A DNA stretch of 64,000 bases from contig QPGO01000254.1 of assembly GCA_008632985.1 (NCBI GenBank), forward strand, positions 1 through 64,000, written 5' to 3'. The position numbers and the translations under genes were made by a program. This document shows, piece by piece, positions 33,891-55,171 of this stretch. Within the stretch, counting starts at the first letter, position 1, and each line of letters begins with the position of its first letter. The notes under the pieces were generated by a model. That model made no database searches. It was not told the origin of the DNA and saw nothing but the letters and a program-made list of their open reading frames with translations. The DNA comes from Psammoneis japonica. Lineage: Eukaryota.

Positions 33891-33899
33891 TGCAAGCAC

Positions 33900-35879: not shown

Positions 35880-35880
35880 C

Positions 35881-35892
35881 TTTATCAGAGCC
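35881..35892 (+). promoter_or_regulatory. Primer-binding-site-like motif TTTATCAGAGCC
   Basis: Immediately after the 5' LTR; resembles the canonical tRNA-iMet PBS TGGTATCAGAGC. Confidence 0.65.
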
Positions 35893-36335
35893 AATGACTT
35901 CTCTCTTTGTTCTGTAGCCTGGAACGGGCAATGGTTTAGCGGCCATTCTATCGATTTTTGCGGCAAGCGCCATGGTCCATGGACGCTCGCGTAATCGAAA
36001 TTATTCACTATAAATATAATCTAGTTATGAATACGAACATACTTCGCTCGTTGGACCTGAGCGATGCGCAACGGAAATTAATCGTTGGAAACGATTTAAT
36101 GTACGCGTAATACTAATATATACTAGGATATATAGAGTATGGAATTATTTAAAGAAATTGACATTCCGTTAATTTACCGGTTTCAATGTCGTTGGTTGAG
36201 CCGACTTTTGCCGTTGGCGATCGCGCACCGGGTGCACGATGGAAACACACCACGACCTCACTTTTCTCGTGAAAATCGAAACGAAACACGCACACACGCA
36301 CATCATACCTCTGACGAGGTTATTTCGATTACACA

Positions 36336-37835
36336 ATGGCTGCCGCTGTCGCTTTTAATGCAACCCTCACCCGGATTGGGTTCAACGATGCCACCAGGGC
36401 TTGCATTGTGGCGCAAGGGATCACCGATGCTAATTCCTGCCACCAAATCCCGCTGTCCGAGGTCGGAGACATGGTCAAGGGATTCATCAAGGACACTGTT
36501 GATGACCCAGCTACACAGTTCCCACACCTCTTGATCAGGAAGTTCAAGGCATTTTGGGCTTTTCTGGATCACCAAACGACACCTGGACAGCCGAGACAGG
36601 CCCAGGCTTTCAACGACCCTGCCACCACTCGCTGTGCGGAACGTCTGAGTGAATTGTCGAACATCCAGAAGGACGAATTGGACGACGACTCTCCAAGCAC
36701 TACACCTCTGAGTCAGATGCACGATTTCTACAATTGGGGCGAGTTGTTTAGAACCGAGCTTCAGCACCACCGCAACGCAGTTGCGGGCGTCCCATTTTTG
36801 CACATCATTCGCGAGACTTCAGATGTCACCGACGAGGTGCGCAGTGCCACTTGCTCGAACGTCAACGAGGACCTTACAGCCACTGCAATCCATCAGGGGA
36901 ATTCACACAATGCTGACAACAAATGGGTTTGTTGTCTCTTGAAAAAGCTGACCATTGATGGGCCAGGGTGGGCCTTCATCAAACCATCCAACCGCGCAAG
37001 GAATGGGCGCGAGGCTCATCTTGCTCTGAAGAGGCAAGCGGAAGGCTCCGCTGCAACTGCTGCTTGCAAGAATTGCGCACATGCTCAGATTGCCACCGCA
37101 AAATGTGCTCACCAGAAGGCTCACAATGACCTCCTCGACCTGGGAGAGCCGGCGGCAGAGACCAAGAGGGTCTCGGACTTCCTGAAGGGAATCACGGACC
37201 CAAGGTTGGAGACCGGGAAGAGCGTCGTGGACGGCGACGAGGCCAAACTCTCCAGCTTTGAGTTGTGTCAACAGCACATGAAGACACTGGTCAAGAACTC
37301 GAAGAATTGGGCGGCTGAACACCGCCAGATCGCGGCACTAGAATGGGACAATTCCAGGAACAGGAGCCAAGGCCGGGGAAAAGGCAAGGCCAAAGACAAG
37401 CCTCGGATTAGGGCAGGCCACTGTCCCAAGGAAAAATGGGATGACCTTGACCAAGAGGAGAAGGCCAAAGTCAACAAGCTTTGTCAAAAGAAGAAGCGCG
37501 AGAAGAAGCGCCGAGCTGCTGCTCTGAAAACGGAGGAGACCAAAGAACCTTCAAGGAAACTTTCTAAGGTGACGGTCACTGATCCCAAGGACGTTGAAGA
37601 GGATGGAACCCCAAAGGAAAAAGGGGGCGCCGATGCTGAGAATCAGTTCGGGCCGGAGCGCACAAGCCTGCGGCTGCAACTGCTGCTGAAGCCGATAAAA
37701 AGCAATGAAAGATTGCACCGACGAGCAAGGACAGCGACCTTGCAGAAGTTAAAATGGAGTCTCAAACCGATTCTTGTGTCACTGCTTCTGTCGGCACCAA
37801 CAGAAATGCATCTGTGCCTTTCGCCAAATCCTTAA
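36336..37835 (+). pseudogene. gag: Copia gag, hypermutated
   Basis: GVPFLHIIRE, GWAFIK..RNGREAHLALKRQAEG, KRVSDFLKGITDP; one Tyr in 499 aa. Confidence 0.8.
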
Positions 37836-37839
37836 GGCG

Positions 37840-38720
37840 CATTGCTTCGGTCGATGCTGATGCAGGCGACAACTCCTTTTTCAACAAGCTGCTAGACACG
37901 CACGCCGATACTTGCGTTGCAGGATCTAGCTGTGACGCGTTCCAGACGTAGGTGGGAATCCGTGTGACATTGGGCCCGTAGACTTCTACGTGCGAGCTCC
38001 GTAGTAAAATTATACGGGAATAAAAATGTCAATGATCGCCAACAGAAAATGAGGCAATTTTGTGAACGCACAAACTCGCCCATGATTGAAGTAGATCATT
38101 TTTTACTTAGCCAGTTACATTCTTCAGACATTGAAGAATGTAACTGGCGCATTATTGTTTCTATAAACTCGTTATATAAAACGTCTGGGGCTTCGCAAAA
38201 CAGCGAGTCTGGACAATTTTTTTTTTATGTCTCACGTAGAAATCTACGTGCGAAACATACGACGGATGATAAAAATTATTTGTGTCACACGTCAGCACTA
38301 CGAGCTCCCACCTAGAGGGCTGGAACGCGTCCTATGTTCCCTTTTCAGATCCCTCCCATGCTGTCACGGTACGTCCGTATTCAAGCAAATACGACCCCAC
38401 AAGGAACATCCCGATGCAGATGGTTGCCACTGTCTGGGTTGACCCGAGTTCTGGCCAGCCACATCTCCTCATCTTGAGTGAAGCTTTGCACTTTGGGGAC
38501 AGAATGAAACACTCGCTGACATGTCCCAATCAGCTCCGTGCTGACGGCTTGACGGTGAATGATGCACCAAAACAGTTTGACAGCTCCAGCACTCATTCAA
38601 TCACCTTCCCAGACTCCAAGGTCCGGATCCCATCACGACTTAATGGGGTTGTTTCTGCTTTCGAAACAAGCAAACCTGCAGAAGATGATCTTGAAAACTT
38701 GCCTGGAGGCTTGAACTTAC
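37840..38720 (+). pseudogene. Copia aspartic protease region, split by a MITE
   Basis: LDTHADTCVAG before the insertion; EALHFGDRMKHSLTCPNQLR after it. Confidence 0.85.
37934..38331. mobile_element. 398-bp MITE-like insertion
   Basis: Perfect 12-bp TIR GACGCGTTCCAG extended by TAGGTGGGA; flanks CTGT (37930-37933) and CTAT (38332-38335) as a 4-bp TSD with one mismatch; removal restores the protease frame. Confidence 0.85.
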
Positions 38721-38968
38721 CTCGCCCCTTGAGTGGGAGCCAAGCTCCAACAAGTTCGCGCAAAAGGAAAACTCAATCGAGACCACACCTCAAAAGGTGG
38801 CAGTGCTTGGTCATTCCCCAGGGCAGAGCCCAACAAGGGAATGCAGGGACAACAATGTGGTGCGTTGCATCGCATCCATCAGATCCCACAATCAAGCTTT
38901 CAACAGCGACACCGCAGCAACCGGGGGTGATGACCTTGAACTCCACAAGGCTCTTGTTTCTGAGGTGA

Positions 38969-40105
38969 GTGCATCGCACCTTGATGCAAAAGGAGATGGA
39001 TTGCGAGGAGAGACTGCGCGTCTGCGCACTCTCCACAACTGAGAGCAGGGGTGCTCTCACCCCTGAGATTCTGTCCAGAAGATGGGGCACTGGTCTCACT
39101 GCCTCCAAGAATGCTCCAAAGGTTGCTGCCCAAGCCTGTGTGCCTTTGGAAAGGAAGGTGCGGAAGAAGGCGCCCTGGCTCAAGTTCCCGAGCATCAAGG
39201 ACAGGTTCCACACGGACCAAATGTTCTCAACTGTGAAATCCATTCATGGGGACGTGGGTGGTTCCACATTTGCAAATGGTTGTGGGCACGACTGCTTTCA
39301 TCCATGGAAATCAAAGGGAGAACACCCCAATGCAACTGTGTCGTTTGTGCACGACGTGGGCATTCCGACGGAAATCATGTCAGACGGGGCTCCCGAGCTC
39401 ACTGATGGACGCACAAAGGAAATTTGCAAGGAGTGCCGAATCAAACAAGGGGTTGCTGTCCCTTGCAGTCCATGGCAGAACTTGGCCGAAGCCTCTGTTC
39501 GTGAGCCAAAGAAGAAAGTGCGGATTGTGACAAGGCATGCGAACGCACCAAAACGCTGCTGGTCCTGCTGCGCCAAGTGGGCCGTGGCCATCAGGAGGCT
39601 CACAGCCTCTGAGCATCCGGAAATGGATGGGAAAGTCCCCAAAGAGGACATTTTGGGTTCAACGCCAGATGTCTCAGCTCATGCCCTCTTTGACTGGCAC
39701 CAGCCGGTGTGCTTTATGATGCCTCAGGCAAAGTTTCCCTTTGAAAGGAAGTGCATCGGGCGCTGGTTGGGTGTTGCAGAAAACTGCACAGACGACATGG
39801 CATTTGCAGTCCTGCCTGAATCAGGTGCACCTGTCATTCGGAAGGATGTGTTGGCTCTGCCTGAGGATGACCTGAAGACCGACGCGATTCAGCAAGAGAT
39901 TGAGCAACTCGATGCCAGTCTGGAACTTAGGCCAGGGGATGGTGAGGAAGGGAATGACAAGTTCCCACAACCACCCAAGGACCTATTTGGTGAGGAAGAC
40001 GCCAATGCAGAGCCGTTTGAAGAAGATGCAACTCATCCAGAAGCAGATGAGTTCACGCCAGAGGCAATGGATGAGCACCCAATGGCAGAACTCAGACTCC
40101 CATGA
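38969..40105 (+). pseudogene. Copia integrase, hypermutated
   Basis: FHTDQMFS, VGIPTEIMSDGAPE, PCSPWQNLAE, GRWLGVAE; no Tyr in 378 aa. Confidence 0.9.
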
Positions 40106-40588
40106 GGTGGTGAGCTGCAACACGTGAAAGCCATTGCTGGGAAGCATGATGCGGACAAGAATCCGACAGGGAAGCGGCACGAAAAGCCTGTCCTTGATTT
40201 GCAGCTTTACAAGGTAGAGTTCCCGGATGGATCTGCCAATGCATTCACGGCTAATTTGATTGCCAAGAACATCTGCTCCCAGGTTGATGGAGAAGGGCAA
40301 TCTCACCAAATCATCAAAGAGATCGCAGGTCACTGAAGTGATGCACGCGCAGTGCACAGGGATGACGGTTTCTTTGTCACAAAGAGCGGCACGCGCAGAC
40401 CCCGCTGAACAACGATCGGTTGGGACCTGCAATTTGAGTGGAAAGATGGAAGCTCTAGTTGGCTCCCTTTGACGGAAGCCAAGGAGTCCTTCCCTGTCCA
40501 AGTCGCAGAATGCGCTGTCACGAACAAGACAGCCAGCAAGCCAGCATTTAACTGGTGGGTTTGAGACACACTGCGTCATCGAGCCAGG

Positions 40589-41588
40589 ATGGTCATGAAG
40601 GTTAAGACCAGGTGCTGGAAACGCACTCACAAATTTGGTGTCGAATTGCCGAAATCCGCAGAGCAAGCCTTGACACTGGACGAACAGTCTGGGCTCGACC
40701 TGTGGGGAAAGGCAATTGAGAAGGAAATGCGCAATGTAATGCCAGCCTTCGAATTTGTCGATGATGACCAGATGCCGGTCGGATGCAAGGAAATCAAATG
40801 CCACATGGTGTTTGACATCAAGTCAGACTTGACTGGAAAGGCGCGACACGTGGCCGGAGGCCACATGACCAACCCACCAAAGGAATCAACTCACTCTAGT
40901 GTGGTTTCATGCAATGGCGTGAGGATGGCTCTTACGATGGCAGCTCTGAATGACTTGGAAGTCATGTGTGCCGACATTCAGAATGCTCATCTGAATGCAC
41001 CAACAAAGGAGCACTGTCACACGATTGCTGGCCTGGAATTTGGCAAGCAGAATGTCGGTCGACCCGTTAAAATTGTCAGGGCTCTGCATGGACTAAAGAG
41101 TTCTGGCTCTGCTTTTAGGGAACATGTGGCAGCGGTGCCAAGGCCAGCAGGTTTCACTTCTAGCAAGGGCAACCCCGACGCATGGATGCGCAAGAATGCT
41201 AAGCCGGATGGCTTCAAGCGCTGGGAATGTGTGCTTGCACATGTAGACAACTTGCCAGTTGTCTCGCACGAGCCCCAGAAGTTCATGGATTACATGGCTT
41301 TGAGATGTGTGCTAAAAGAGGGAAGCGTCAAGGAACCGGAAGAGCACCTTGGTGCCAAGGTGAAGAAGTTCCAACCATCTGACTCGGACGGCAAGACGCG
41401 TTGGGCCCTTTCATCTGATTTGCATGTCAAGCGGGCCATTGCTGACGTTGAGTTTGAACTCAGCCGTGCAGGCCGGGGACTCAAGAAAAGAGTCACCATG
41501 CCATTGAGCTTGGGGTGCCGCCCTGAGCTTGATGCCATGCCTGAGCTGGACGCCCGGAGGGCGACTTGCTTCCAGGGACTCATTGGTG
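40589..41588 (+). pseudogene. Copia reverse transcriptase (5' part), hypermutated
   Basis: CHMVFDIK, KARHVAGGH, ADIQNAHLNAP, RALHGLKSSG, HVDN in place of YVDD, EHLGA. Confidence 0.92.
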
Positions 41589-42033
41589 CATCAGAGCGCG
41601 AAATGTGGTGATCCTGACCACCCTTCTCATGGGTAATTTTTAACACTGTCACAGGTGTAAACACAACACTTTCACATTGAGTGAGTTGTGTAGAACGTGA
41701 TTTTTTGTTGCATGTCACAGCACAACATTTTTCACCATGGGACCCCTCCTTTGCCCATGGGACCCCTCCCCCAACTGTCAGAATTCCGTCACTTTTTACC
41801 TTTTGAAAGCGATGTTCAAAACGTTTTGTTCAACAACAAATTAATGCCAATCATTGCGTTTTGTTGGTTTAAAGAACCTTCCATTGCATGCACTGGTTGT
41901 CAAATGAAAGGTTAGATCATAAAACAATGATCCCCGGGGCACTTTGTCAAACCTCACAACTGTCGACATTGAAACCCACCACATTGCTTGTCCTCTTTCC
42001 ATTGTCACACTAACAAAAGCCTCCGCTGCCTTT

Positions 42034-43281
42034 TCATGCCGCAGCTCGCTCAGCATCTGCATCTACATTCGCATCGCTTTCCGCATCACTGTCCTCCTCC
42101 CCTTCCTCGCTGTCCTTGTCTCCTCTGTTCTCGTCCATCACCTCTTCCTCCTTCTCCTCGTCATCACTTGAAAGCTCCATCGTTGCCTGTGTTCTTGCCT
42201 CCTCCACCTGCTTTTTCTTTCTTTTCGATCCCTTGCCTCTTTCATCACTCTTCCTTTTCTTGCCTTTGCTGTGCCATGTGTTGAACTGCATGCCCTCCTC
42301 ACTCAACCTGTCTTTCTTTACTGCCGCAAGCAGTTCGTTGAATCGCTTGATCCCTGCATCCTTCCACTGGTCTCGTTGCCTTGACGGGTCCGTGCAGTTG
42401 GGTGTTGGTTCCGACTCTTCCTCATCTTCTTCATCCGAACCTCCCCCTGCTGCAACAGTCTTGTCATGACGTGCCTTGTGCTCCCAACTCTTCCAGCAGT
42501 TTTCCAATGTCAACAGCGCCAGAGCCTCATTGCTTGCTGCAGCCAGACCGGTTGCCTTTGTCTCACCCGACTCTACCTTCCTTCTCCATGTGGTGGTGCT
42601 CTTTGTGAATTTCAGGATGTTTTCGTAGAACCAAGCACATGCTTCCTTGTTCTTGCGCTTGTCCTCCACAATCGTTGTCACTGTTTCCTCCCCCCAAGTC
42701 GCCAGGAACGGCTCTTCCTCTTCCGTGCAATCGTTCTTCTTCCTCTTCTTGCTCTTCTTCCCACCTCTGCCCTTTGCTGCCGGCTTCTTCTGACTGCGCA
42801 TCTCCTCTGCTTCATTCTCTGTCAACACGACTTCAGCAAATGAAGGTGCAGCCGTGTCAAGTGCAGCTGCACTCAACATGCCGTGCACCACAAAACACTC
42901 ACCAGCCGCTGCATTGTTCTTGATCGCCTGAGTGACTGTGCTCCTTTTCGCGTTAATTGCGCGCATGACGCACTTCTTTGCCCAGTCTTCCCATGTTCCC
43001 GCCCAGTCTCGCTTGCTGTAATTTCCTCCGGCCATCTTTTTCCTGATGAGCCGCGACACTTTGCCACTGCTTGCCATGTCCGCCTTGACAAGGAATTTTG
43101 CCTTTGGGAAAAGTTCCTTCCGCGCCACCTCTTCAACCTCTCTCTTTATAGACTGGTGATCCCCAGTGGCTCCCACCCGCACCAACGCTGCGGCTGGCCT
43201 TGGGCTTGTTGGTTGATCTCCAGCCACCCCCGCAGTTTCTTTCTTCCTCTTCCGCACCATTGCCTGTGCCACTGTTGCCAA
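42034..43281 (-). CDS. Transposon-borne hypothetical protein (acidic tail, EALALLTLENCW, GIKRFNEL)
   Basis: 415-aa open frame inside the element, likely mutated. Confidence 0.5.
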   Translation of the reverse strand: MATVAQAMVRKRKKETAGVAGDQPTSPRPAAALVRVGATGDHQSIKREVEEVARKELFPKAKFLVKADMASSGKVSRLIRKKMAGGNYSKRDWAGTWEDWAKKCVMRAINAKRSTVTQAIKNNAAAGECFVVHGMLSAAALDTAAPSFAEVVLTENEAEEMRSQKKPAAKGRGGKKSKKRKKNDCTEEEEPFLATWGEETVTTIVEDKRKNKEACAWFYENILKFTKSTTTWRRKVESGETKATGLAAASNEALALLTLENCWKSWEHKARHDKTVAAGGGSDEEDEEESEPTPNCTDPSRQRDQWKDAGIKRFNELLAAVKKDRLSEEGMQFNTWHSKGKKRKSDERGKGSKRKKKQVEEARTQATMELSSDDEEKEEEVMDENRGDKDSEEGEEDSDAESDANVDADAERAAA

Positions 43282-43711
43282 TTGTGGTTGTCTCCATGCC
43301 TTGTGTCCCCAGTTGTTTTTGTCGTTGGGAAATTTTCAAACCTCTCTTTAATGCCAACAATCTTGTGGTTGCCACCAATGATTCCTTTTTCTCAAATGCA
43401 ACATGGTTGAGAATTGACCAAATCTTTTAATGTGCATGTAATTCGTCCATTTTGCCACTCCTCATTGTCTCATGAAAATTTTGAATCATTGCAAATTCCA
43501 GTTCAAACCTCTCTTTTGCTGCAATTTTGAAATCCACTTTCACAGTGTAAATTGCTTTCAAAAGCATTTTCTTCAAAACATCATTGTAAAATGTGCACCT
43601 GTGAAAGTTGTTTTTGCTGCAATGAACACACCCCTCACCTGCTTTAATGTTGTTCCGGTTCGCTGTTGGGGCCTGAGCACATCCATCCTTTTTGGTGCCA
43701 AATCGTTTTTT

Positions 43712-44920: not shown

Positions 44921-45204
44921 GGCTTGTCACGTCACAACTTGTTTTCTCCTGTCCGTAGAAAAACAACCTTTGCAATCAGTCACTCATGCTCAAAGTTGTC
45001 AATGATCGCAACGCATTTGATTCATTCTCACCTGTCAATGTTTTCATTGATGGGAAGAACACAATGCACCCATGTTTTTGTGCCAATTCGTGTCGTGTTT
45101 TCCTTCCTTGCCGCCCAAACTGTTTCACTTTTCATGAACTGAACCGGTGCTGCCATTCGAACACACATGTGTTTGGGCAGCCCACAAACCTGCTGAAATG
45201 ACAA

Positions 45205-48200
45205 ATGGAAGGAAATGGTGGTTGGCAGGGTGGGGATGGTGTGGTGGCATGTCCCCGTTGCAAACGATCCTTCAAACGGATGCTCACCCATTTCCATCAT
45301 GACCCGCTGTGTTTTTCATTTGCTCAAGAGATGTCCAACTTGTCACGTCGCAATGCAGTCACAAACTGCCCAATGCCAGAGTTGTCAGCAAGGGTTGCGG
45401 CTAAAACTTCCAATGTCAGCAACAAATTCTCTCGCAGACGTGGGTTGGTTGATCTCGACATTTCCTCCTCATCAGATGACTCGTCACAGCCACGGCTGAG
45501 GCGGTCCAGACGAGGTGCATCCGCAGCGAACATTGGGCTTGGGTCCACTGACAACGAAAATGACAGAAGCGATGAACCATGGTCACCACCGTTTGATGAT
45601 GACATTTCCACTCGCGGGTTGCAATCCCATCACGAGGAAATTCATTGCATGTCCCTGGACTTGTCTTCTGAAGCAAGCTTGTCACCAGATGACTTGTTTG
45701 ATGCGTTGCCAGATGTCACAATGGAGGGCTCCGAAGTTGCAAATCCTGACAAATCAAACATCTCAGACGAAGATGATTTGCAGAGTGAAGATGGCCGATT
45801 GGGCAAGGTGCACCGCAGCCCAGCTGAAGACGCATTTGCGCACGTGCCATCTCTTGGCAACCTCAACGGTGCTTGTGCAGAGCTGTGCAAGCTCTTAGAC
45901 GACTGCAGAGCACCGCTTCACCTGTGCGACAAGATCGCCGAGTTCATTGAAAGACACTGTGGCAGCACCTTCCATCTTGGAACGCAAATCCCTCGCCGGA
46001 CCAAACCAATGGAGAACCTGCGCAAATCTTTTGCAGGTCCGGAATGCAAGATGATTCCAGTCAACCTAGAAAGCATCAATGGGGAACGCGGTGAGACAAC
46101 AGCAAGAGTTCCGCGATGGAATTTCAAAGATGTGTGGGAATCGTTCATGCTGGATGCTTGCACATGGGCCAACCCCAGCAATCTCGCCAACACTGCCCAT
46201 CCACACGGAATGTTTGTCTCAAAGGGAAAGCACGACAAGTGTGTTTTGGCAGGACAGTGGTGCAGAAGTGCACGCGCAGCCAGGGTCTCGGATCCTCTTA
46301 AAGAGTTCCTCAGATGTTTGACAATTTAAGTTGACAAGACTGGGAAGACAGCCTCCATGTCATCTTCCTGCGGAGAACCCGTCACAGTTACGTTGGCTCA
46401 TGTTGCCTGCAACCAATGGCATGACAGAGCGAAGTGGCGTGTCCTTGGTTACATTCCCGACCTGGAAAAAATGTCCTCCTCCGCCGCCAAACAGCAATCT
46501 AACGCTCGAAAGTCGGAGAAGGGCCAAAGCATCCGGGATTGTCACAAGGTGTTGGCAACAATGCTCCAGCCTCTGCTGGACACAATGGAAAACGGTGGCT
46601 TTCGCTGCTGTGTTCGACGCGGTGATGAGATGCGTTTCCTTCATGTCATTCCAACAATGATCCTAATCAACGGAGATGCGAAGAGTGGTGACTGCCTTGT
46701 GGGTGGGTGTGGTGCCAAGAACTGTCACCAACGTTGTTCCAGGTTTTGCATGACCGGATACAATGAGCTTGACGACCCTTGGAAGGAGTGCGAACTCGTC
46801 AGGGCTGGTGACATTTTGTCAGTCCAGAACCACGCAAATGATCTCAGTCTTGACAAGCAAGAAAGGAGCCACTGGCTGCAGCAGCTTCATTGCATGAAGC
46901 AGCACAATGTGCCCACCAACAGCTTGCTCAATGCAGATTTCGGAGAACAGCCGTTCGGAGCAACCCTTTCCACGGCAAGTGACATGATGCACCTGTTTGA
47001 AAATGGAACTTTAAAAAGGGAGGTTGGTGTGTTTGTCAACAGCATGACAAACTCAGTGAGAAGCGAGGTCGACAGATTGGTGGAAAAAATGTTTGGCAAT
47101 CACCGATCCACATGCAATTCTTTCTTGTGAACCAATTTCAAGGGCGGGGCCACATCACTCACCTGCCTCAACTCACATCATTGGGCGGGGATGGCCTTTG
47201 TTTTTCATTTGTTGCTGCTGACAAAGGAAGGCAGAGATGTCTGCGAATCTTGTTTTCTCCAGGAAGACCAAGACAATCCTCCATTGCGGTCAGGGCATGG
47301 GACACCCAGGTTCCGAATCAATCGCTGTCACATGCCGGAAGAGCACGACAATGGCAACGATCATCATTCCAACAACAGAACAGATGATCCATGCGAAACG
47401 GATGCCGACAATTGTGTGGAACACCAACCGGACGAGTCCGAGGATGAAGGCAACAGCCACAATCAACGGAAAAGGAAAAAAAAGAGAAAGCCCCTCAGTT
47501 GCAGTGTCAGGCAATGCGTCCAGTTGCTGGAAGACCTGCTTGCCTTCCATGCTTGGTGTCGACTTGGCGACCCACCGACCGACACAACTGACCTGACCAA
47601 AATCACAAAGAAAACTTGGTTGCTGGTGTCTCGCATTGTACATTGCTCCCCTGGACACGAAGGGGCTGGGTGGAAGCTGCAAAAACTTCACGAGCTTCTT
47701 CACCTTCCAATCTTTCTACATCATTTCCGTCATGCAATGAACTTTGACGCTGGTCTTGGAGAATCTTTGCTTGGGGATTTTTTCAAATTGCCATCTGCCA
47801 CGGCACAACAACGCAGCTTTGACATCTTCCTGGGTCAGGTTGCGTCACGCATGCAAGACCAAATGACAGTGCACCGTGCGTTGTCGGCCAACCCATGGAT
47901 CACATCGAGAGTTGGAGGAAAGGACGTGACACGTGGCAATGACAGTCACACACTGGGTGGTGGTGCCTTTTCCATCACCCACAGTGCGACAAACCATGCA
48001 GTGAGCTTTCTCTGGCACGGAAAGCAAAAACAATGTCAGGTTCACCCGGTCCTGCTCCATTTCTTTCAAAAGAAGTGGAGGGATTGCGTTGGAGCAGGAG
48101 GTGGTCTCACCGTCAACCTTGTTTGCAAAACCGAATTCTGCCACAAGAACGGGAAAGACACTTGCCGCACACACCCAGACTGCAACAGCGAAGGACCGGT

Positions 48201-48603
48201 TCACGACTGGGCGAATGTCAACTTTGGCACAACTGGGGGGGAATTGTGCTTCCCGTCAAGACTTCACTGTTTCTTCCAAAGGGAAAGTGACGGTGACTTG
48301 TGTGCGGTCGTTCACCCTTGCACGCACCAGCCTGACAAGCGTGCCATGGTTGAACGAATGCAACACACCGACCTGGTTAGTTGCTGGCAATTGGACCAAG
48401 TGAAGAACAACAACTTGTCCACTGCTGAACAAACAGTGCACTCACCCAAGCTTTTCTTGGTGCCCATCGACGCTGTTGGCGACAAATTGTTGGTGCATGA
48501 GGAGCAACCCGGCATTGCTGAGACACACGACAGGACAAAGCATGTTTGGGCAGTTCAAGACCGTAGAAATGCATGGGGAGAGCTGTCTCACAAAAGCAGG
48601 TGA
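45205..48603 (+). pseudogene. Plavaka-like transposase, broken by a stop (46327) and a frameshift (about 47130)
   Basis: N-terminal CPRC..H zinc finger, VDKTG..EPV, WRVLGYIPDL, INGDAKSGD, SDMMHLFENG, WKLQKLHELLHL, NFDAGLGE, HPD...GPVHDWANV. Confidence 0.75.
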
Positions 48604-48720
48604 AAAGCATGTGAGCATCCGACAACAGCAGCAGAAAACTTAATCGGGACGACAAGGACATCAACAGAGACAACGTTCACTCACCCACTTTAACAATCTA
48701 CTCAGAAATCCGACTGGGAA

Positions 48721-51700
48721 CTAGCACAGCAAAAAACTGCTGGGCCATTTCCTCATCTCATCCCTCCAATCGGGCATTCTCCTCTTGAAGGACAGGAACG
48801 GGAACAGTTCCTTCGGGTTGTAATTTCCACAGTCTCGTAGGAACTCCAGGACTGCCTCAGCTTCTTCATGTGGCAGCGTTTCCCGAATTTCCTGTTCCGT
48901 GACTCCCAAATGTGATGCTTCCTGGTCAGATGGTTTTCCTGGCCAATCCACACGGCACTCCTCCACAATCTCCTGGGAAGCCTGGCAGAGCGTCACTTGG
49001 GCACATGCCATGTCCTGTGTCATGCCCTGCACCAGTGCGCATTCCTCGATGTCATCCAAATTGCACGCGGTTTGGGCCAGTGACCAAATGGTGCACGGGA
49101 TTATGACGTGGCACCTCTGGAGCTTTGGATGAAACAATGTTTCCATCACATCCCTCAGGTTTTTGCCAAAGAAGCGATTTCCGAGTGTCGACTGCAGCCA
49201 CTCCCCTTTTTGCATCCAGCAGTGGTCCATGCAAATCTGAGTGAAGCCACTTTTGTTACAATCAATCACTGTTCCAAACCGCGTCTTGACCCTTTGGGCA
49301 AAATTTTTGGCGGACATGTTGCAATTCAAGTGACAAGCGGGGCTGCCATCCTGCAGGGACACAGTGCATGCATGAACATTTGAGTTCGTGTGGAGATCCT
49401 GAACGACTTGACACCTTGCCTCATCTCTTCTTTGCTGAGTGGATTGGACAGCCTCCACCCCACGGTCCGAACATGTCTCATCCAATGTCAGGTTTCCGGC
49501 CATGATGGGCCTCGTCATGCAAAGCCACAGGACATTTGCACCTCCATCTTGTCTGGGGATGACATGACAATGTGAAACAAAAGCACAGGAGGAGTCATGT
49601 TGCGGATTAAGATTTGTGAAAAACATGACACCAAACAATTGTAGGAGTTCTTCGGCTGTTGACAGACTTGCGCAAAAATGGCATTCACACATTTGTCCAT
49701 GTCAAAATCTTGCACTTGTGAAAGGACCGGTGGCTCGGGTCGATCGTACGTGGTTGCGTTACTTGCATCATCTTCATCGGATTCTTGATCCTTCGACTGA
49801 AGGACAACAGAATCTACCATGACAATTGGAACGCGGCAGTCATTTTCAGGACACGAGCAGTCCTCCGACAACACAGACTCCTCCAAAGACAATGAGCTCA
49901 GTTCATTGTCTGCGGTGAGTCGAGACTCCTCCGAATCCAATGAGCTTGGTTCATTCTCCACGTCAAGTTGACAATCCTCCAAAGACAATGAGCTTAGCTC
50001 ATTGTTTGCGGCGAGTCTAGACTCCTCCGATGACAATGAGCTAAGTTCATTGTCCACGGGCAGTCCATCAACAATGGAGAAAACACTGGCACCGTCTGAT
50101 TGCCCGGCTGATTCACACACAAATGTGTGCGATTCAGCATTGTCTTGTGATTGGCAAAGGTTGGGGTCGTCGTCAACACACTCCAAAATTTCATGCTCGG
50201 TTGACCCATGTGGCTTACAGAGACGCTGGCCAGAAGGAGAGAAGGTAAACAGGTCTTGTCCTGAACAGGGTCCTTGGAAAACACAATCAAAAATGCAGGT
50301 GCAGCGATTGTCTGAATTCTCACAAAGTTTGTGCTCAGTTCCGTTCTAACCATGCTCTTCGGTTCCTGTTTTGGATGATGTCCTTTGGTGCATGAGCGGC
50401 CTTTCTTCCGGTTGGATGTGCCCCAGTTGTGCGGCAGCTCCCGAATTGAAGACAGGACAGACAATGTTGTTGAGTCTTGGATGGTCTTTCACTGCGACAC
50501 CTGCCAGCACCAGACATTGCAGCACCAACATGAGACGAATCTCACTGAAATCTGCTCCCCGGTCTGCCCAAGCATCACATGCTGCCTTGCACCATTGTTC
50601 CATTAAGTTGGGACAGAACTCGTTGGTGTCAACGTTGTCGTTCATCCAGAGAAGCACAGCATAGATTTCTTCCACCATTGCGTCAATTGGGTCATTCGCG
50701 GTTCCGACGTGACAAGGGTCTAGAAATACATCGCAAAATTTCTCATACGTCAAATTGGTGGGGCTGATCCCACCCACCTGTGGGTCACCGAATGGCACCC
50801 CAAATGTGTTCTGCAAGCAATCGGCAAAGTTGACAAACGGGTCAGCACCTTCGCAACAAAGGTTGGGAAGATGCTTGTCCCCCACGCAGTAAAATCGGTG
50901 ACATCCGGTGGGATGACCAGCATGGATCGCCAAACGAATGACTCGTTTTGGGTCGGGACCCGATCGGCACACAATGTTCTTGAAATGGCAGATCACTGTG
51001 ACTGGGGCAGATGAGTGGAAGTCCCTGACTGGGAAAGTCGGGAACTTGAGTCGATCCATGTGCACCTCAACATGTGAAGAGTCGCCACCTCCACCAATGA
51101 GAACATTGTCCCACGGCCTGTTGTCATCAAGGGAAAGATGCTTGAATGCAATGCTGGAAAGCGACACATCGGGGTGGGTGGGACCATCGTGCTGTAAGTC
51201 CAAGTCTTTTAAATGCAAAATCAAGCTGAGCTCGATTGTGGTGCATGCGAGCAAGCACAGGCTTCATGTCACACTGGTCATCGCAGCATTCACCAACGGT
51301 CCTTCTGCTGTTGGCAACAACCTTGAAGGACCAGATGTCGCCAAAGGCATCCATGATGAAGAAGCAACCTGCAGCTGTCTTCCTGCATCAATGCCAGATG
51401 CAGTTTTTATTGTCATGGTGACCATCACAGTCTTGACCCCGGGAAATGCACAATCCCTGCATGGCAACGTCCTCACGTTTGAAGAAGAGACAGCCCATTT
51501 CGTTGCCCAACTTTTGCGAGCATTCCTCGCACCGAAGTGACCAGTTAAATGGTGGTGGATTGCTCAGTTTTTCAGCTCTACCTCATTTTTGCAAAGCTGA
51601 GTCGAGTCAAGGATGTCGGCTGCCATCGCCTTGATTTTGGAGGTCTCGTTGGCGTCAAAGTTGTCATCGGGCTCAAAGACATCAAGTCCGCAAGCAGCCT

Positions 51701-53662
51701 TTGGTTTGGCCAGTTTGGCAGAACCAGGTGTCTTGGGGTGATGCGCTCTCCCAGCACAGCCGAACTTTGTCCTGCGTGCTTTGCCGTTTTGAACTGCAAC
51801 CGGTCCGTCACATGTCAAATCGGACTCTCCCTTCAACAAAATAAATAGAAGAAGGGCAGGAATGCACACACGAAGGCACCCAAAGTGCCCTTTGTACAGA
51901 GAGTTAGCCTGACGGGCGACGGAGAGTTCCTCGGAGAAGTGATCAAGGTTGGGAGGGTGCTCGGTTCGAACACGAGATGTGGTGGCAGAATCACATGATG
52001 GCACATTGTTTGAGAATGTGTGCCAGTTTTCCCGCAAGTTGTCCGCCAGGCAAAAGTCAGCGGCAGAATGATGAAGCACCCGATCAGTGTCGGTGGCTTT
52101 GTCAATGATGTGCAGGTGTGACAAATGAGAAGAAACTTCCTTGGTGGTGGCGGGTCGACACTTGGGCGGGTCAAAGCGATCGCGGAGTGTGGACAGGTCC
52201 AGCCACGACATGTTGTCAGGGTCGCTGGGAGGAGACGTGATCGCGGGAGGATTAGCTGAAACAGAAGGAGGAGAGGAATGAGGTTTGGATGAAGGACCTT
52301 TGGAGGTAGAAGTGGGTTTTGGGTTTTCCACAATTTCTGAGAGTGACGGAAGGTCGGCGGTGAGAGTCCGGTGCGCCTCCCTGGACGACGGAACATCACC
52401 AGAAAGCGATGGAGGGGCTTGTTTCTTGCGAGATGCAGGCTTGGCCTTCTTGTTGGGAACGGTCAAGGAAGGCTCTGGTGGGTCGTGAACAATCATGGGG
52501 TGTGAGAAGAGACATTGAGACGACAGATGCTGGCAGAAAGGTAGAAGGCGGGAGGTGGGGGGGGGTTCTCACCATCGTACAAACAGGTGCCATCCTTGCG
52601 GGTCCTCCCAATTTTTGTGTTTGGTTTTAGAGTTGTAGATTTGTTTGTTGTCGTCTTCCAAGCAGTCGGCCCTCTGATCACGCAGTCTGCAATGGAGCAT
52701 TGTGAGCTGCTTGCTGCACCCAGGTCGGATGCCAATTTGCTCCTTGGGACAACGCTTCCCAAATTCGTGATTCAACATGGAGTTGATTTTTTCTTCACAA
52801 GCCTCACGGCGTGCAAGGGAATCGCCTTGCATTGTCACTGTGTTCTTCATGTCACCAGTTGAGTCGGCAAGGAACCCCTTGATCTCACCCGCCTGGGCAC
52901 CAGGATCATTGGTGTTGCACGCAACCAGAAAGCTGTTGACAAAGAGGCGCCATTCCTTTTGGGTTTTGATGTGACGGAAAATCTTCAAGAACCAACAGTC
53001 ATGATGATGTCAGTGACAAAACAGGCACTGTGGAGGTCTTGGGCTCGATCGTTGATCAAACTTTGGAGACTTTTGCACCGTAAAAATCGGGTGCAAGGCT
53101 TGCCGGATAAAGGATCATTTGGGTCATCTCTGGCAATGATCGTGTGAACAAATTCTGCCATTGCCTGGATGTTGCGGTGAAGAAGCATGCGGTTCTGCTG
53201 TTCTTTTTCTGTCTCTCCAGATGTTTTGGAGAAATGCAGAGCCTCCTTGAGATTTTTACATTGCAGGACATGTTCACCTTTCGCACGGCGGGATTTCTTG
53301 ATGGACCAACCACGAGTCATGATGCAGGACCAAATGTCGGGATAGCCAAGGGTTTTCCTTACAATGTCATTGGTGCGGGTGACTTTGGCAACACAAGGAA
53401 CATGGCGTAACTTTGGCTTGTGACAAAGGAAGGGAAGAGCGAGGAATTCTGGAGAGGGGGTCCAATTCGTCGACTCCAAAAACTTCTTTTTCGAGGCACG
53501 CGTTGCAATCATGCTTTTGAGCTTGGGTTGGAACAATTCGAATCCGAAACCGTTGGTGAAACATTCCATTTCATTGAAATTACAGTCCTTGGTAATTTGG
53601 AAAGAAGGGTCAGGGTTGACCTCATCGTCAGACGGGGTAAAGTCGTTAGACGCCATGGCCAA
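48721..53662 (-). pseudogene. Large transposon cargo gene(s), fragmented
   Basis: Chain of same-strand ORFs (52985-53662, 52569-52988, 51564-52496, 50346-51254, 49515-50186, 48721-49692), some in frame across single stops. Confidence 0.5.
49875..50054. repeat. Tandem repeat, 48-bp period, about 4 copies (NELSSLS.EES)
   Basis: AATGAGCT at 49891, 49939, 49987 and 50035. Confidence 0.9.
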
Positions 53663-54211
53663 TAGTCAGTTGCCGATTCACGTAGAATGCACAGGATTCA
53701 CAACAGCACACCCTCTCGTCAAATGCATTTTGGGGAGAGGGTGTGCTGTTGTGAAATGGGTGGAGAACTGTGCATGTAGAAAAGGTGCCAAAATGCAGGC
53801 AGGGACCTGTTGACTGGACAACTGGAGCAAGCAGGTGGAAATGATGAGCTGGTGTTCCTGGGTGATTGCGTGGCCGACTGGGGCGAGGGAGAAATGCCAT
53901 TGTCTGTGGTGATGCAAGGCTGCGGTGAAGCTGTTGAAAAGCACCATCAAAGTCAACGTTTCCACAAATGTGCGACAAATTAATCAAAACAAAAAGCATT
54001 GTTCAACAACAAAGGGCTCATTGAAATTCTTTGGTGACTTAAAAGCAAAACAAAACGGTGACAATCACCAACATAAAACGGCAATGACAAACGCAAATTG
54101 ACTGTCAAAATAAAAATGAACTGTCACTAACAACAGTGCACTTTTGTTTAATTAAATGTGCCAAAATTTCCAAAGGAAAGTGAACAACACTGCATTGCGG
54201 CCTCTGATGTG

Positions 54212-54950
54212 TTTTGCATTGGATGGTGGAACTGGGGCACATTGACATTGTGGTGCCGGTCTCTCTTCTATCTTCTTGCTTGGCAGCGCCAAGGGTTGGG
54301 CACCTGGATGAGGTGTTCCATGTCTTTGCCCATTTGAAGGCACACGCCAGGTCAGCAATGGTGTTCGACGACACGGAACCGACCTTCGATCAATCACGTT
54401 TTCAGGAATGTGACTGGTCGGAATGCCATCCTGGGGCAGCCGAAGCCATCCCTCATGATGTCCCTGAGACTGGGGGGAACAGTGTGTCACCACCACATGC
54501 TTCGTCGATGCGGATGATGCTGGTTGTCAAGTAACGCGTCGATCCCATGCAGGGATCATTGCATTTATGCAGCGGGCCCCAATTTTGTGGCACTCAAAGA
54601 GGCAGAACACCGTGGAATCCTCAACTTTTGGGTCGGAATTTGTTGCGATGAAGATTGCTGTGGAGCAGATCGAGGCTTTTTGATGTAAGCTTCGTATGAT
54701 GGGGATCCCCATTGCTGGCCCCACTAACGTCTTCTGTGACACCGAGGCCGTGTTCAAGAACTCGACGCGGCCCAAGTCGACACTCAAAAAGAAACACAAT
54801 GCCATTGCATGTCACCGGACACGTGAGGCTCAAGCTGCAGGCATTGTGCACATTGCTTGGGAGGATGGCGAAACTAATCTTGCCGATGTTCTCACCAAGT
54901 TGATGCCCGGACCGAGGCTCCGGGAGTTGATTCGTCACATTCTGTGGTGA
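54212..54950 (+). pseudogene. Copia RT C-terminus and RNase H
   Basis: WMVELGHIDI, SKRQNTVESSTFGSEFVAM, VFCDTEAV, KKKHNAIACH, NLADVLTK. Confidence 0.92.
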
Positions 54951-55163: not shown

Positions 55164-55171
55164 GAGGGGAC
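55164..55171 (+). promoter_or_regulatory. Polypurine tract GAGGGGAC
   Basis: Directly precedes the 3' LTR. Confidence 0.75.

What the first reader, a model, noticed from the sequence alone, without database searches (positions are those of the whole stretch)
36336..54950. Repeat-targeted TpA to TpG/CpA (A-to-G) hypermutation: a RIP-like system with a different chemistry
Seen: transposon DNA is nearly free of TpA while flanking host genes look normal. Integrase has 0 Tyr in 378 aa, gag 1 in 499, RT 1 in 340, and I found none in the 374-aa and 470-aa transposase pieces. Against known copia motifs, Tyr becomes His or Cys: YVDD to HVDN, NAYLNA to NAHLNA, ALYGLK to ALHGLK, PYSPWQN to PCSPWQN, FDWY to FDWH, AIAYH to AIACH. 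Other TA-containing codons shift too (RELK to REPK, CTA to CCA). These are T>C or A>G at TA on either strand. The pattern also covers a non-LTR element and a DNA transposon, so it likely acts on genomic DNA rather than an RNA intermediate. Known: fungal RIP and 5mC decay are C>T and RIP creates TpA, the opposite direction. Inference: an adenine-directed mutator (deamination or error-prone repair) aimed at repeats. I know of no description of this in diatoms.
Basis: partly seen in the sequence, partly recalled or inferred. Interest (0 to 1): 0.96.

Follow-up and report, generated by a model that had tools for sequence, protein, structure and literature searches.

The report
TpA-erasing mutation of diatom transposons
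In this diatom-like genome, dead transposons have had almost every TA step rewritten to TG or CA on both DNA strands while neighbouring genes are untouched, the same odd mutation signature reported in 2026 for viral inserts of an unrelated alga.

Summary
Mobile-DNA blocks at 1-1000, 20007-29295, 32901-35600 and 38336-54950 have TpA observed/expected 0.03-0.17, against 0.51 in host DNA. The missing TA+CG is matched by extra TG+CA.

Comparison with relatives gives the direction. Of 24 TA steps conserved in 39 environmental relatives of the copia pol, the window keeps 1; 12 became CA and 9 TG. It keeps 408 of 490 other conserved steps, and each relative keeps 71-100% of its conserved TAs. Conserved Tyr columns are kept 1 of 21 (His 10, Cys 6). 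A Plavaka-like DNA transposase keeps 1 of 28 aligned Tyr.

Both strands and a DNA transposon are hit, so the process acts on genomic DNA, not on an RNA or cDNA intermediate.

The chemistry is no longer undescribed. A 2026 preprint shows de novo TpA>TpG/CpA hypermutation of viral inserts in Bigelowiella natans. I found no diatom report.

A repeat-sensing, RIP-like trigger is not shown, and a very high-copy MITE-like insert inside the copia is unmutated. The enzyme is unknown, and no whole genome was available. An element of the non-LTR class could not be verified.

Verdict: new member of a known kind.

The parts
1..1000 (.). TpA- and CpG-depleted block running off the window start (unclassified repeat)
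   Evidence: TA 2 observed vs 28 host-like, CG o/e 0.10, TG 1.75, CA 1.84. No Pfam hit.
20007..29295 (.). 9.3-kb block almost free of TpA and CpG; unclassified mobile or repeat DNA
   Evidence: For 20201-29200: TA 20 vs 315 host-like (o/e 0.03), CG o/e 0.16, TG 1.76, CA 1.85. Edges are set by the last and first TA at 20006 and 29296. No Pfam hit in 40 ORFs. No copia or Plavaka remnant by tblastn.
32901..35600 (.). TpA-depleted, CpG-poor block, unclassified
   Evidence: TA 12 vs 83 host-like (o/e 0.07), CG o/e 0.34. No Pfam hit.
35744..35879 (+). Putative 5' LTR of the copia element
   Evidence: Direct repeat of 55171-55346. It ends in CA and is followed by TATCAGAGC, which resembles the copia primer-binding site as I recall it (the motif is recalled, not tested).
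35880..36335 (+). Leader between LTR and gag, NOT TpA-depleted (unexplained; may hold a young insert)
   Evidence: TA o/e 0.94, CG o/e 1.78. An 11-nt perfect inverted repeat lies at 35991-36001 and 36322-36332.
36336..37835 (+). copia gag-like ORF, 499 aa with 1 Tyr
   Evidence: TA o/e 0.17, Tyr 0.2%. No Pfam hit. Called gag from its position only.
37934..38331 (.). MITE-like insert inside the copia, very high copy, unmutated
   Evidence: 12-nt perfect terminal inverted repeats plus a 38-nt subterminal inverted repeat. For 37934-38320: TA o/e 0.83, CG o/e 1.40. Summed contig depth is 63,836 and 15,738 in its two bins, against about 30 for single-copy contigs.
38336..41586 (+). copia pol (protease-integrase-RT) in one frame, broken by TGA stops and cut by a nested insertion at 41586
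   Evidence: tblastn of P0147 gives 38336-41590 in one frame. RVT_2 scores 31.3 bits against a 31.6 cut-off. All 7 in-frame stops over the three pol pieces are TGA, 5 of them in this piece, and conserved Tyr columns are kept 1 of 21. TA o/e 0.14.
41587..54210 (.). 12,624-nt nested insertion into the copia RT, itself TpA-depleted
   Evidence: A contig of run X1 joins 41586 to 54211, skipping 12,624 nt. TA 107 vs 405 host-like, CG o/e 0.63.
45205..48603 (+). Plavaka-like DNA transposase ORF, 1132 codons with 2 internal stops and 2 Tyr
   Evidence: 38% identity over 86% of the query to P0297 (E 5.9e-195), which carries PF18759 Plavaka. Aligned Tyr of P0297 kept 1 of 28: Cys 6, His 5, Arg 4, Phe 3.
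54211..54950 (+). 3' end of copia pol (end of RT and RNase H), with two frame changes
   Evidence: tblastn of P0147 gives 54187-54489 and 54486-54788. It reads KKKHNAIACH where P0156 has KKKHNAIAYH. TA o/e 0.17.
55171..55346 (+). Putative 3' LTR of the copia element
   Evidence: Aligned to 35744-35879 with a 40-nt indel. Most differences lie at YpR steps.

Best explanation
Old mobile DNA in this diatom-like nuclear genome has been through a context-specific transition process acting on genomic double-stranded DNA. The elements affected are a Ty1/copia retrotransposon, a Plavaka-like DNA transposon nested in it, and several unclassified blocks.

Nearly every TpA became TpG or CpA (A:T>G:C, either strand with equal chance). 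CpG also decayed to TpG/CpA, more slowly in some blocks. Host genes and intergenic DNA a few tens of bases away are untouched.

Shown:
- the direction of change;
- the dinucleotide specificity;
- the strand symmetry;
- the restriction to mobile DNA;
- that the element family is not natively TA-poor;
- that surviving TAs depend on the flanking bases (TTAA survives, ATAT never).

Inferred:
- This is the same kind of process as the TpA-only hypermutation of integrated viral DNA seen de novo in Bigelowiella natans.
- It is enzyme-driven. My leading guess, at about 45%, is deamination of adenine preceded by T in DNA. I give about 15% to a thymine-directed modification.
- It is aimed by silencing state (methylated or heterochromatic foreign DNA) rather than by sequence repetition.
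- The CpG loss is ordinary 5-methylcytosine deamination in the same silenced DNA.
For: Composition:
- TA o/e is 0.03-0.17 in the blocks and 0.51 in host DNA, with edges sharp to under 100 nt.
- Mass balance per kb: the TA+CG deficit is -79.0, -43.5 and -43.5 in the 20-29 kb block, pol and nested block. The TG+CA excess is +74.7, +35.0 and +40.2.

Polarised at the DNA level:
- Among dinucleotides that at least 70% of 39 metagenomic relatives share, the window keeps 1 of 24 TA (CA 12, TG 9, CG 1, TT 1). It keeps 408 of 490 of all others except CG (Fisher P 3e-16).
- Control: each of the 39 relatives taken as focal keeps 71-100% of conserved TA.
- In the RT alone, 0 of 14 conserved TA are kept (TG 6, CA 6) against 35 relatives.

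Protein level:
- Conserved Tyr columns are kept 1 of 21 (His 10, Cys 6, Trp 2, Arg 1, Phe 1). Other conserved columns are kept 309 of 394 (P 4e-12).
- Of 105 replacements at conserved columns, 35 are single TA>TG/CA steps and 10 are CG>TG/CA.
- All 7 in-frame stops are TGA.

Not native to the family:
- 80 of 80 related loci have TA o/e 0.46-0.87, and 0 of 1799 windows of 600 nt fall below 0.15. In the window, 108 of 318 do.
- The 26 integrase homologues have 1.1-5.0% Tyr and the 25 full-length polyproteins printed have 2.8-4.8%.

Not RNA or cDNA editing:
- The Plavaka-like DNA transposase keeps 1 of 28 aligned Tyr.
- TG and CA products are about equal, and a runs test shows no strand clustering (13 runs vs 15.7 expected, P 0.20, n 30).

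After insertion:
- The two putative LTRs differ at 17 of 136 aligned columns.
- Leaving out 6 differences at the alignment edge or beside a 40-nt indel, 10 of the other 11 are at YpR steps: 5 TA vs CA/TG, 3 CG vs CA/TG, and one CA vs TG pair.

Context of the 166 surviving TAs:
- TTAA 35 (4-5 times baseline), ATAT 0 (11-15 expected), ATAC/GTAT 5 (0.2 times).
- The trend holds in all five sub-blocks and against two baselines (chi-square P 1e-29 and 7e-36).

Sequence support:
- Contigs of public run X1 match TA-free stretches exactly: 36645-37208 and 39179-39615, 0 differences, depth 29-34.

Precedent:
- In B. natans mutation-accumulation lines, 230 of 231 new mutations in two viral inserts were A>G or T>C, all at TpA. 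TpA-poor CDS were enriched for RT and DDE domains (results and discussion sections read).
Against: - No de novo event is seen here. This is a fossil signature, so 'hypermutation' (a high rate) is inferred, not measured.
- Within the same copia, the leader 35880-36335 is not depleted (TA o/e 0.94) and the LTRs still share several TAs. Either the process is patchy, or those parts are younger, or much of the internal damage predates this insertion.
- Of the 40 best-supported differences between the window and other copies in run X1, only 2 involve TA. 16 involve CG (12 with the window at TG/CA where the others have CG, 4 the reverse), 8 are transversions and 14 are other transitions.
- The other 2010 differences were not shown. 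I therefore cannot tell whether copies lost their TAs independently or inherited the loss.
- The LTR differences are not polarised, because there is no outgroup.
- Run X1 may be the data the assembly was built from and its library type is not on record, so it is not independent proof against a base-calling artefact.
- The enzyme, the base attacked (A or T) and the targeting signal are all untested.
- The unmutated high-copy MITE-like insert and the normal host tandem duplicate speak against a simple repeat trigger. They could also be explained by youth, short length or selection.
Confidence: 0.78

Rival explanations
1. RIP-like trigger. The same TpA mutator exists, but it is set off by sequence duplication sensed through homology, as in fungal repeat-induced point mutation.
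For: All identified targets are multi-copy. Summed contig depth is 1200-4400 over 41.5-54.2 kb, against about 30 for single-copy contigs. Damage is confined to the elements and has sharp edges.
Against: - A MITE-like insert at far higher depth (15,738-63,836) is unmutated.
- A 1-kb host tandem duplicate, 81% identical, has normal TA content and an ordinary spectrum: 78 of 168 differences are transversions.
- In B. natans the main target was reported as single-copy.
Confidence: 0.12
2. Sequencing or assembly artefact. Heavily modified bases in silenced DNA are systematically miscalled, modified A as G and 5mC as T, so the real DNA still has TA and CG.
For: - The pattern is limited to YpR steps in DNA expected to be modified.
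- Reverting it would restore near-intact proteins.
- The library type of run X1 is not on record, and X1 may be the assembly's own data.
Against: - Contigs of X1 built from exact 31-letter words at depth 29-34 reproduce TA-free stretches with 0 differences. That fits accurate reads.
- About 94% conversion on both strands is far beyond the miscall rates known to me (recalled, not tested).
- The element also carries frame changes and 20 transversion-type replacements.
- The same signature was obtained from Illumina data in B. natans.
Confidence: 0.05
3. No targeting. A genome-wide mutation bias against TpA, or an unrepaired lesion at TpA, acts everywhere. It shows only in old, unselected, untranscribed DNA.
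For: - Host DNA already has TA o/e of only 0.51.
- The mobile-DNA blocks are clearly dead, so they are free to drift.
Against: - Host intergenic and non-ORF stretches are not depleted, with 1-kb windows at 0.4-0.78.
- The window's pol is as close to the family consensus as its relatives are at non-TA steps (83% kept, against 69-95%), yet it has lost 96% of TA. The TA rate must therefore exceed the background rate by orders of magnitude.
- Edges are sharp to under 100 nt.
Confidence: 0.06
4. Editing before integration. An ADAR-like or APOBEC-like enzyme edits the retroelement's RNA or cDNA, and the edited copies then insert.
For: - The preprint's discussion states that ADARs favour U before the edited A.
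- The leader and LTRs are less damaged than gag and pol. This loosely recalls the editing gradients of retroviral cDNA (recalled, not tested).
Against: - A DNA transposase gene is hit equally, with Tyr kept 1 of 28.
- TG and CA products are equal (9-13 vs 12-17) and not strand-clustered, whereas one-strand editing predicts one product.
- The LTRs differ from each other at TA steps.
Confidence: 0.03
5. Native or selected composition. These element families evolved to avoid TA, for instance to escape a nuclease or an RNA sensor, or they came from a TA-poor donor.
For: Long ORFs remain open, because TAA and TAG cannot arise.
Against: - Relatives are not TA-poor, 80 of 80 loci.
- Catalytic and conserved Tyr are lost, with YVDD read as HVDN.
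- There are seven in-frame TGA stops and two frame changes.
Confidence: 0.02

Closest known systems
TpA-restricted hypermutation of integrated giant-virus and virophage DNA in Bigelowiella natans (Mettrop et al., bioRxiv 10.64898/2026.01.13.699255; outline, results and discussion read, supplements closed)
   Same: - Only A>G and T>C, only at TpA, giving TpG and CpA on either strand.
- Confined to foreign or mobile DNA with normal flanks.
- Leaves TpA-poor, CpA+TpG-rich clusters whose genes are enriched for RT and DDE domains.
- The enzyme is unknown; the authors propose an ADAT2-like candidate.
   Different: - The host is a diatom-like stramenopile, not a chlorarachniophyte.
- The targets identified here are a copia retrotransposon and a Plavaka-like DNA transposon.
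- Depletion is close to saturation (o/e 0.03-0.17, against Rho 0.45 for their giant-virus region).
- CpG is lost as well.
- A flank rule is seen here (TTAA spared, ATAT erased), which I could not compare with their tables.
- No de novo events or rates were measured here.
Fungal repeat-induced point mutation (RIP)
   Same: Both are DNA-level, transitions only and tied to a dinucleotide context. Both inactivate mobile elements, have sharp edges and leave a lasting compositional scar.
   Different: - The direction and chemistry are opposite. Here TpA is destroyed and GC content is unchanged (0.48-0.53).
- A homology trigger is not shown here.
5-methylcytosine deamination (CpG decay) in methylated transposons
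   Same: It explains the CpG>TpG/CpA part. Diatom DNA methylation is predominantly at CpG (PMC5124317, passages read).
   Different: It cannot remove TpA. In the 38-54 kb blocks TpA loss is much deeper than CpG loss (0.14 vs 0.6).
APOBEC3 and ADAR hypermutation of retroelements and viruses
   Same: Both are deaminase-type, context-dependent hypermutation used against mobile or foreign nucleic acid. ADAR favours U before the A.
   Different: Those enzymes act on single-stranded cDNA or double-stranded RNA and mark one strand. Here both strands and a DNA transposon are marked.
tRNA adenosine deaminases TadA/ADAT2-ADAT3 and their reported DNA activity
   Same: The natural target A34 follows U33 (recalled), which matches the T before the A. 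DNA editing by amphioxus and trypanosome ADAT2 is cited in the preprint.
   Different: No such gene could be looked for here. The inferred 3'-neighbour order T>C>G>A has no known counterpart that I could check.

Membership tests
B. natans-type TpA hypermutation of foreign DNA | Changes are almost only A>G / T>C | tested here: met
   21 of the 23 lost conserved TAs became TG or CA. In run X1, the places that differ between copies are 1613 transitions and 435 transversions.
B. natans-type TpA hypermutation of foreign DNA | Restricted to the TpA dinucleotide, both strands (TpG and CpA products) | tested here: met
   TA kept 1 of 24, against 408 of 490 for other steps. Products are CA 12 and TG 9. 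Control relatives keep 71-100%. CpG is also lost here, which the preprint does not report.
B. natans-type TpA hypermutation of foreign DNA | [quoted passage not shown] | tested here: met
   Blocks 0.03-0.17 against host 0.51, with edges at 20006 and 29296. Tested within this 64-kb window only.
B. natans-type TpA hypermutation of foreign DNA | Observed de novo, at a rate about 1000 times background, in some lines only | not testable with these tools
   No mutation-accumulation or pedigree data. Only a fossil signature and one LTR pair.
B. natans-type TpA hypermutation of foreign DNA | Same enzyme or homologous machinery | not testable with these tools
   The enzyme is unknown in B. natans, and no genome was held for this window.
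Fungal RIP | C>T (G>A) transitions, mostly at CpA, that raise TpA and AT content | tested here: not met
   TpA falls to 0.03-0.17, CpA/TpG rise to 1.4-1.85, and GC stays at 0.48-0.53.
Fungal RIP | Triggered by duplicated sequence above a length and identity threshold | tested here: inconclusive
   The high-copy 398-nt MITE-like insert and the 81%-identical host duplicate are unmutated. Both could fall below a threshold.
CpG decay by 5mC deamination | CpG>TpG/CpA in methylated DNA | tested here: met
   CG o/e is 0.10-0.63 in the blocks and 0.99 in host DNA. In 12 of the 40 listed differences the window has TG/CA where all other copies have CG. Methylation itself was not measured.
RNA or cDNA editing of retroelements (ADAR / APOBEC type) | One-strand signature, limited to elements with an RNA or cDNA stage | tested here: not met
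   The products are symmetric and a DNA transposase gene is equally hit.
Ty1/copia LTR retrotransposon (the main target) | gag, then protease-integrase-RT-RNase H in that order, RVT_2 domain, LTRs | tested here: met
   - Full-length polyprotein P0147 aligns over 38336-41590 and 54187-54788.
- RVT_2 scores 31.3 bits, just under its 31.6 cut-off; the intact relative P0147 scores 69.7.
- There is a direct repeat pair at 35744-35879 and 55171-55346.
Plavaka (CACTA-like) DNA transposon | Plavaka transposase domain PF18759 | tested here: inconclusive
   The window ORF itself has no Pfam hit. It is 38% identical over 86% of its length to P0297, which passes the Plavaka cut-off at 28.4 vs 26.3 bits. 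Terminal repeats were not sought.

The most novel reading that the evidence does not exclude
Diatoms carry an active, enzyme-driven genome defence that rewrites T-A steps in the DNA of silenced invaders. This would be a natural DNA adenine editor with the flank rule ATAT > GTAT/ATAC > ... > TTAA. It would be the same system as in the chlorarachniophyte Bigelowiella, and so ancient and widespread in the SAR supergroup or beyond, filling the role that RIP plays in fungi.
Probability: 0.35. Interest if true: 0.9.

Novelty: new member of a known kind. Interest (0 to 1): 0.7.

Why it matters
Until 2026 no cellular process was known that erases TpA from selected DNA. One preprint now shows it happening in a chlorarachniophyte.

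Finding the same scar, driven almost to saturation, in the transposons of a diatom-like stramenopile would mean three things:
- The system is not a curiosity of one alga.
- It acts on ordinary transposons as well as viral inserts.
- It shapes repeat landscapes in one of the ocean's main groups of primary producers.

There are practical consequences too:
- Such elements lose Tyr, TAA and TAG. They look like long open frames and escape domain searches: no family above its curated cut-off in any of 124 ORFs.
- Repeat and gene annotation of these genomes will therefore be misled.

The flank rule found here gives a fingerprint by which candidate enzymes can be tested. A natural enzyme that edits A in T-A context in DNA would interest the base-editing field.

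Tried and rejected
- Whole genome: not held. There was therefore no genome-wide scan, no alignment of family copies and no search for deaminases.
- Other copies in reads: one read-laying run gave totals by kind of change but listed only 40 of 2050 differing places. The context spectrum among copies could not be tabulated.
- No RNA holder was listed for the stretch. Runs X2 and X3 barely cover it.
- Pfam on 13 long ORFs and 124 ORFs of 90 aa or more: only RVT_2, just under its cut-off. The blocks at 1-1000, 20-29 kb, 33-35.6 kb and most of 41.6-54.2 kb stay unclassified. A read of the minus strand over 48724-53665 showed many stops.
- tblastn of 17 copia and Plavaka proteins found no further remnants elsewhere in the window.
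- Self-comparison found no second copy of any element in the window apart from the LTR pair.
It was later used on the stored homologues P0176 and P0001, whose nearest clusters are Bacillariophyta.
- Cluster look-up for the sources of the two Tyr-free public RT fragments P0176 and P0207: database switched off. Their organism is unknown.
- First alignment for the metagenome scan had no conserved stretch. A smaller one worked.
- Strand-run test on 30 polarised events: no clustering (P 0.20), at low power.
- Tetranucleotide gain analysis of the TG/CA products: noisy, and not used beyond noting no gain of TTGA.
- Earlier findings of this scan: nothing on this genome or on look-alike sequence. One phage note on TpA depletion is unrelated.
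- Literature: five full-text searches found the B. natans preprint and no diatom report.

Full report
**1. The observation**

Dinucleotide observed/expected ratios in 1-kb and 300-nt windows show four stretches almost free of TpA: 1-1000, about 20.0-29.3 kb, 32.9-35.6 kb and 38.3-54.9 kb.

Pooled host DNA has TA 0.51, CG 0.99, TG 1.20 and CA 1.19. TA counts, observed against the number expected at the host's own ratio (Poisson P from 2.9e-10 to 6e-106):

| Block | Observed | Expected |
|---|---|---|
| 20201-29200 | 20 | 315 |
| 32901-35600 | 12 | 83 |
| copia pol | 25 | 91 |
| 12.6-kb nested block | 107 | 405 |
| 1-1000 | 2 | 28 |

- TG and CA rise together, to 1.4-1.85.
- Around the 9.3-kb block the flanking TAs are at 20006 and 29296, so the edges are sharp to within about 100 nt.
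- Per kb, the deficit of TA+CG is -79.0, -43.5 and -43.5 for the 20-29 kb block, pol and nested block. The excess of TG+CA nearly equals it, at +74.7, +35.0 and +40.2.
- The trinucleotides TAA and TAG (counted on both strands, all frames) are rare in the blocks and TGA dominates: 459 TGA, 21 TAA and 12 TAG in the 9-kb block. This explains the many overlapping long ORFs.

**2. What the DNA is**

The host is diatom-like.
- Every organism-named hit among the best 120 for a host DUF4461 protein is a diatom, at 36-40% identity. The best hit, unnamed, is at 58%.
- The Atlas clusters nearest to that best hit are mostly Bacillariophyta.
- No whole genome was held.

The finding's region is a Ty1/copia element.
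- Its parts are a putative 5' LTR (35744-35879), a leader, a gag-like ORF (36336-37835) and pol in one frame (38336-41586).
- Pol is interrupted at 41586 by a 12,624-nt nested insertion and resumes at 54211-54950. A putative 3' LTR lies at 55171-55346.
- Support comes from a full-length polyprotein alignment, RVT_2 just under its cut-off, a contig of run X1 that joins 41586 to 54211, and the LTR alignment.

Inside the nested block, 45205-48600 is one frame of 1132 codons with two stops. It is 38% identical over 86% of its length to P0297, a 1154-aa protein carrying the Plavaka transposase domain. A DNA transposon is therefore affected too.

A non-LTR element could not be verified. In the blocks scanned (1-1300, 20000-29400, 32200-36300, 41500-54400), none of the 124 ORFs of 90 aa or more matched a Pfam family above its curated cut-off. 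tblastn with copia and Plavaka proteins found nothing elsewhere in the window.

A 398-nt MITE-like insert with 12-nt perfect terminal inverted repeats sits in the copia at 37934-38331.

**3. Direction and specificity**

I fetched relatives of the copia: 26 integrase fragments, 150 RT representatives including 32 full-length polyproteins, and 80 metagenomic DNA loci.
- The 26 integrase homologues have 1.1-5.0% Tyr and the 25 full-length polyproteins printed have 2.8-4.8%.
- All 80 loci have TA o/e of 0.46-0.87, median 0.67.
- None of 1799 windows of 600 nt in those loci falls below 0.15, against 108 of 318 in the window.

So the family is not natively TA-poor.

Protein level, against 24 of the 32 full-length homologues (P 4e-12):
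- Of 415 conserved columns the window keeps 310.
- Of the 21 conserved Tyr columns it keeps 1, the rest being His 10, Cys 6, Trp 2, Arg 1 and Phe 1.
- It keeps 309 of the 394 others.
- Of the 105 replacements, 35 are single TA>TG or TA>CA steps and 10 are CG>TG/CA. A further 12 are other transitions, 20 are transversions and 28 need several steps.
- Thr>Ala, Ile>Val and Met>Val replacements sit behind a codon ending in T. That is TpA across a codon boundary.
- All seven in-frame stops are TGA.

DNA level, by threading codons of 39 relatives with an ORF of at least 1000 aa onto the protein alignment (P 3e-16):
- At steps where at least 70% of relatives share a dinucleotide, TA is kept 1 of 24 (CA 12, TG 9, CG 1, TT 1).
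- All steps other than TA and CG are kept 408 of 490.
- In the RT alone, with 35 relatives, TA is kept 0 of 14 (TG 6, CA 6). Two loci with stops were dropped there.

Control: each of the 39 relatives, taken in turn as the focal sequence, keeps 71-100% of conserved TAs. At non-TA steps the window (83%) lies inside the relatives' range (69-95%).

The window's copy is thus an ordinary family member except that its TAs have gone. The Plavaka-like ORF behaves the same way: of 28 Tyr of P0297 aligned, 1 is kept (Cys 6, His 5, Arg 4, Phe 3), against 422 of 1052 other residues (P 2e-5).

**4. Where and when it acts**

Three results place it on genomic DNA rather than on an RNA or cDNA intermediate.
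- A DNA transposon is hit.
- TG and CA products are about equal, with no strand runs among 30 polarised events (13 runs against 15.7 expected, P 0.20, low power).
- The two putative LTRs, identical at insertion if they belong to one element, differ at 17 of 136 aligned columns. Six of these lie at the alignment edge or beside a 40-nt indel. Of the other 11, five are TA against CA/TG, three are CG against CA/TG, two form one CA against TG pair, and one is another transition.

As a contrast, a 1-kb host tandem duplicate (15475-16532 and 16765-17812) shows 168 differences. Of these 78 are transversions, 22 are TA-type and 13 are CG-type.

The LTR differences have no outgroup, so their direction is assumed, not shown.

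**5. A flank rule**

The 166 TAs that survive in the blocks are not a random sample.

| Tetranucleotide | Survivors | Relative to baseline |
|---|---|---|
| TTAA | 35 | 4.1 to 5.2 times its share in relatives or host |
| ATAT | 0 | 11-15 expected |
| ATAC/GTAT | 5 | 0.2 times |

- The ranking holds in all five sub-blocks and against both baselines (chi-square P 1e-29 and 7e-36).
- The ten strand-folded ratios fit a simple product of per-strand factors set by the base 3' of the A. The inferred mutability order is TAT > TAC > TAG > TAA (my arithmetic).
- Some survivors may be new TAs made by back-mutation, so this is a lead and not a measured preference.

**6. What does not fit**

- The copia leader 35880-36335 is not depleted (TA o/e 0.94, CG o/e 1.78) and the LTRs still share several TAs. 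An 11-nt inverted repeat pair at 35991 and 36322 hints at a young insert, but this is unproven.
- The MITE-like insert is unmutated (TA 0.83, CG 1.40). Its bins have summed contig depths of 63,836 and 15,738, against about 30 for single-copy contigs.
- Of the 40 differences from other copies that the read tool listed (of 2050), only 2 involve TA. In 12 the window has TG/CA where all the others have CG, and in 4 the reverse. Another 8 are transversions and 14 are other transitions.
- This suggests the other copies are TA-free as well. It cannot tell independent loss from inherited loss.
- The totals by kind of change are A>G 418, C>T 410, G>A 396 and T>C 389, with each transversion class at 36-65.

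**7. Artefact check**

Contigs of public run X1 reproduce the TA-free stretches 36645-37208 and 39179-39615 with 0 differences at depth 29-34. The run may be the assembly's own data and its library type is not on record. I therefore keep a 5% artefact rival and name the read check that would settle it.

**8. What is known**

A bioRxiv preprint of 2026 (10.64898/2026.01.13.699255; outline, results and discussion read; supplements closed) reports the following for Bigelowiella natans:
- In mutation-accumulation lines, 231 of 302 new single-nucleotide mutations fell in two integrated viral regions.
- 230 of those were A>G or T>C, and all of them were at TpA.
- The rate was about 1000 times background, and only some lines were affected.
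- TpA-poor CDS were enriched for RT and DDE domains.
- The authors propose an ADAT2-like adenine deaminase.
- Diatoms are not mentioned in the sections I read.

Five full-text searches found no diatom report. Diatom DNA methylation is mainly at CpG (PMC5124317, passages read), which fits the CpG decay seen here.

Two of the 150 public RT representatives (P0176 and P0207) are also nearly Tyr-free, with His, Cys or Arg at the NAYLNA, ALYGLK and YVDD positions. The nearest Atlas clusters of P0176 are Bacillariophyta. Their source could not be looked up.

**9. Verdict**

- The RIP-like repeat trigger and the adenine deaminase are not shown.
- The claim of a wholly undescribed chemistry is overtaken by the 2026 preprint.

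What is new is the host lineage, ordinary transposons as targets, near-saturation, co-occurring CpG decay and the flank rule. I file it as a new member of a known kind, with interest 0.7.

Noticed in passing
window 37934-38331: A 398-nt MITE-like element with 12-nt perfect terminal inverted repeats (GACGCGTTCCAG / CTGGAACGCGTC) and a 38-nt subterminal inverted repeat. Summed contig depth in run X1 is 15,738-63,836, against about 30 for single-copy parts. Its TA and CG content is normal although it sits inside a mutated copia.
   Followed up: partly
window 35880-36335: The copia leader between LTR and gag is TA- and CG-rich (o/e 0.94 and 1.78), unlike the rest of the element. An 11-nt perfect inverted repeat at 35991-36001 and 36322-36332 may mark a second young insert.
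   Followed up: partly
window 20007-29295: A 9.3-kb block with 20 TAs and 79 CpGs, no Pfam hit in 40 ORFs, and no likeness to the copia or Plavaka proteins held. Its identity is unknown. The TA-free zone starts about 200-300 nt outside the CpG-poor zone on the left edge.
   Followed up: partly
proteins P0176 and P0207 (public RT representatives): Two of 150 RT cluster representatives are nearly Tyr-free (0% and 0.37%), with His, Cys or Arg at conserved Tyr motifs. These are other hypermutated copia copies in public data, about 40% identical to the window's RT. Their source organism could not be looked up.
   Followed up: partly
window 15475-16532 and 16765-17812: A tandem duplicate of about 1.05 kb in host DNA, 81% identical, with normal TA content and an ordinary substitution spectrum.
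   Followed up: yes
window 49879-50058 and 25582-25769: Short tandem arrays inside the mutated blocks: 48-nt units repeated about four times, and a 94-nt unit repeated twice at 94% identity.
   Followed up: no
window 5695-8295 (- strand): A host protein kinase gene appears split into two ORFs by a gap of about 48 nt, probably a short intron.
   Followed up: no
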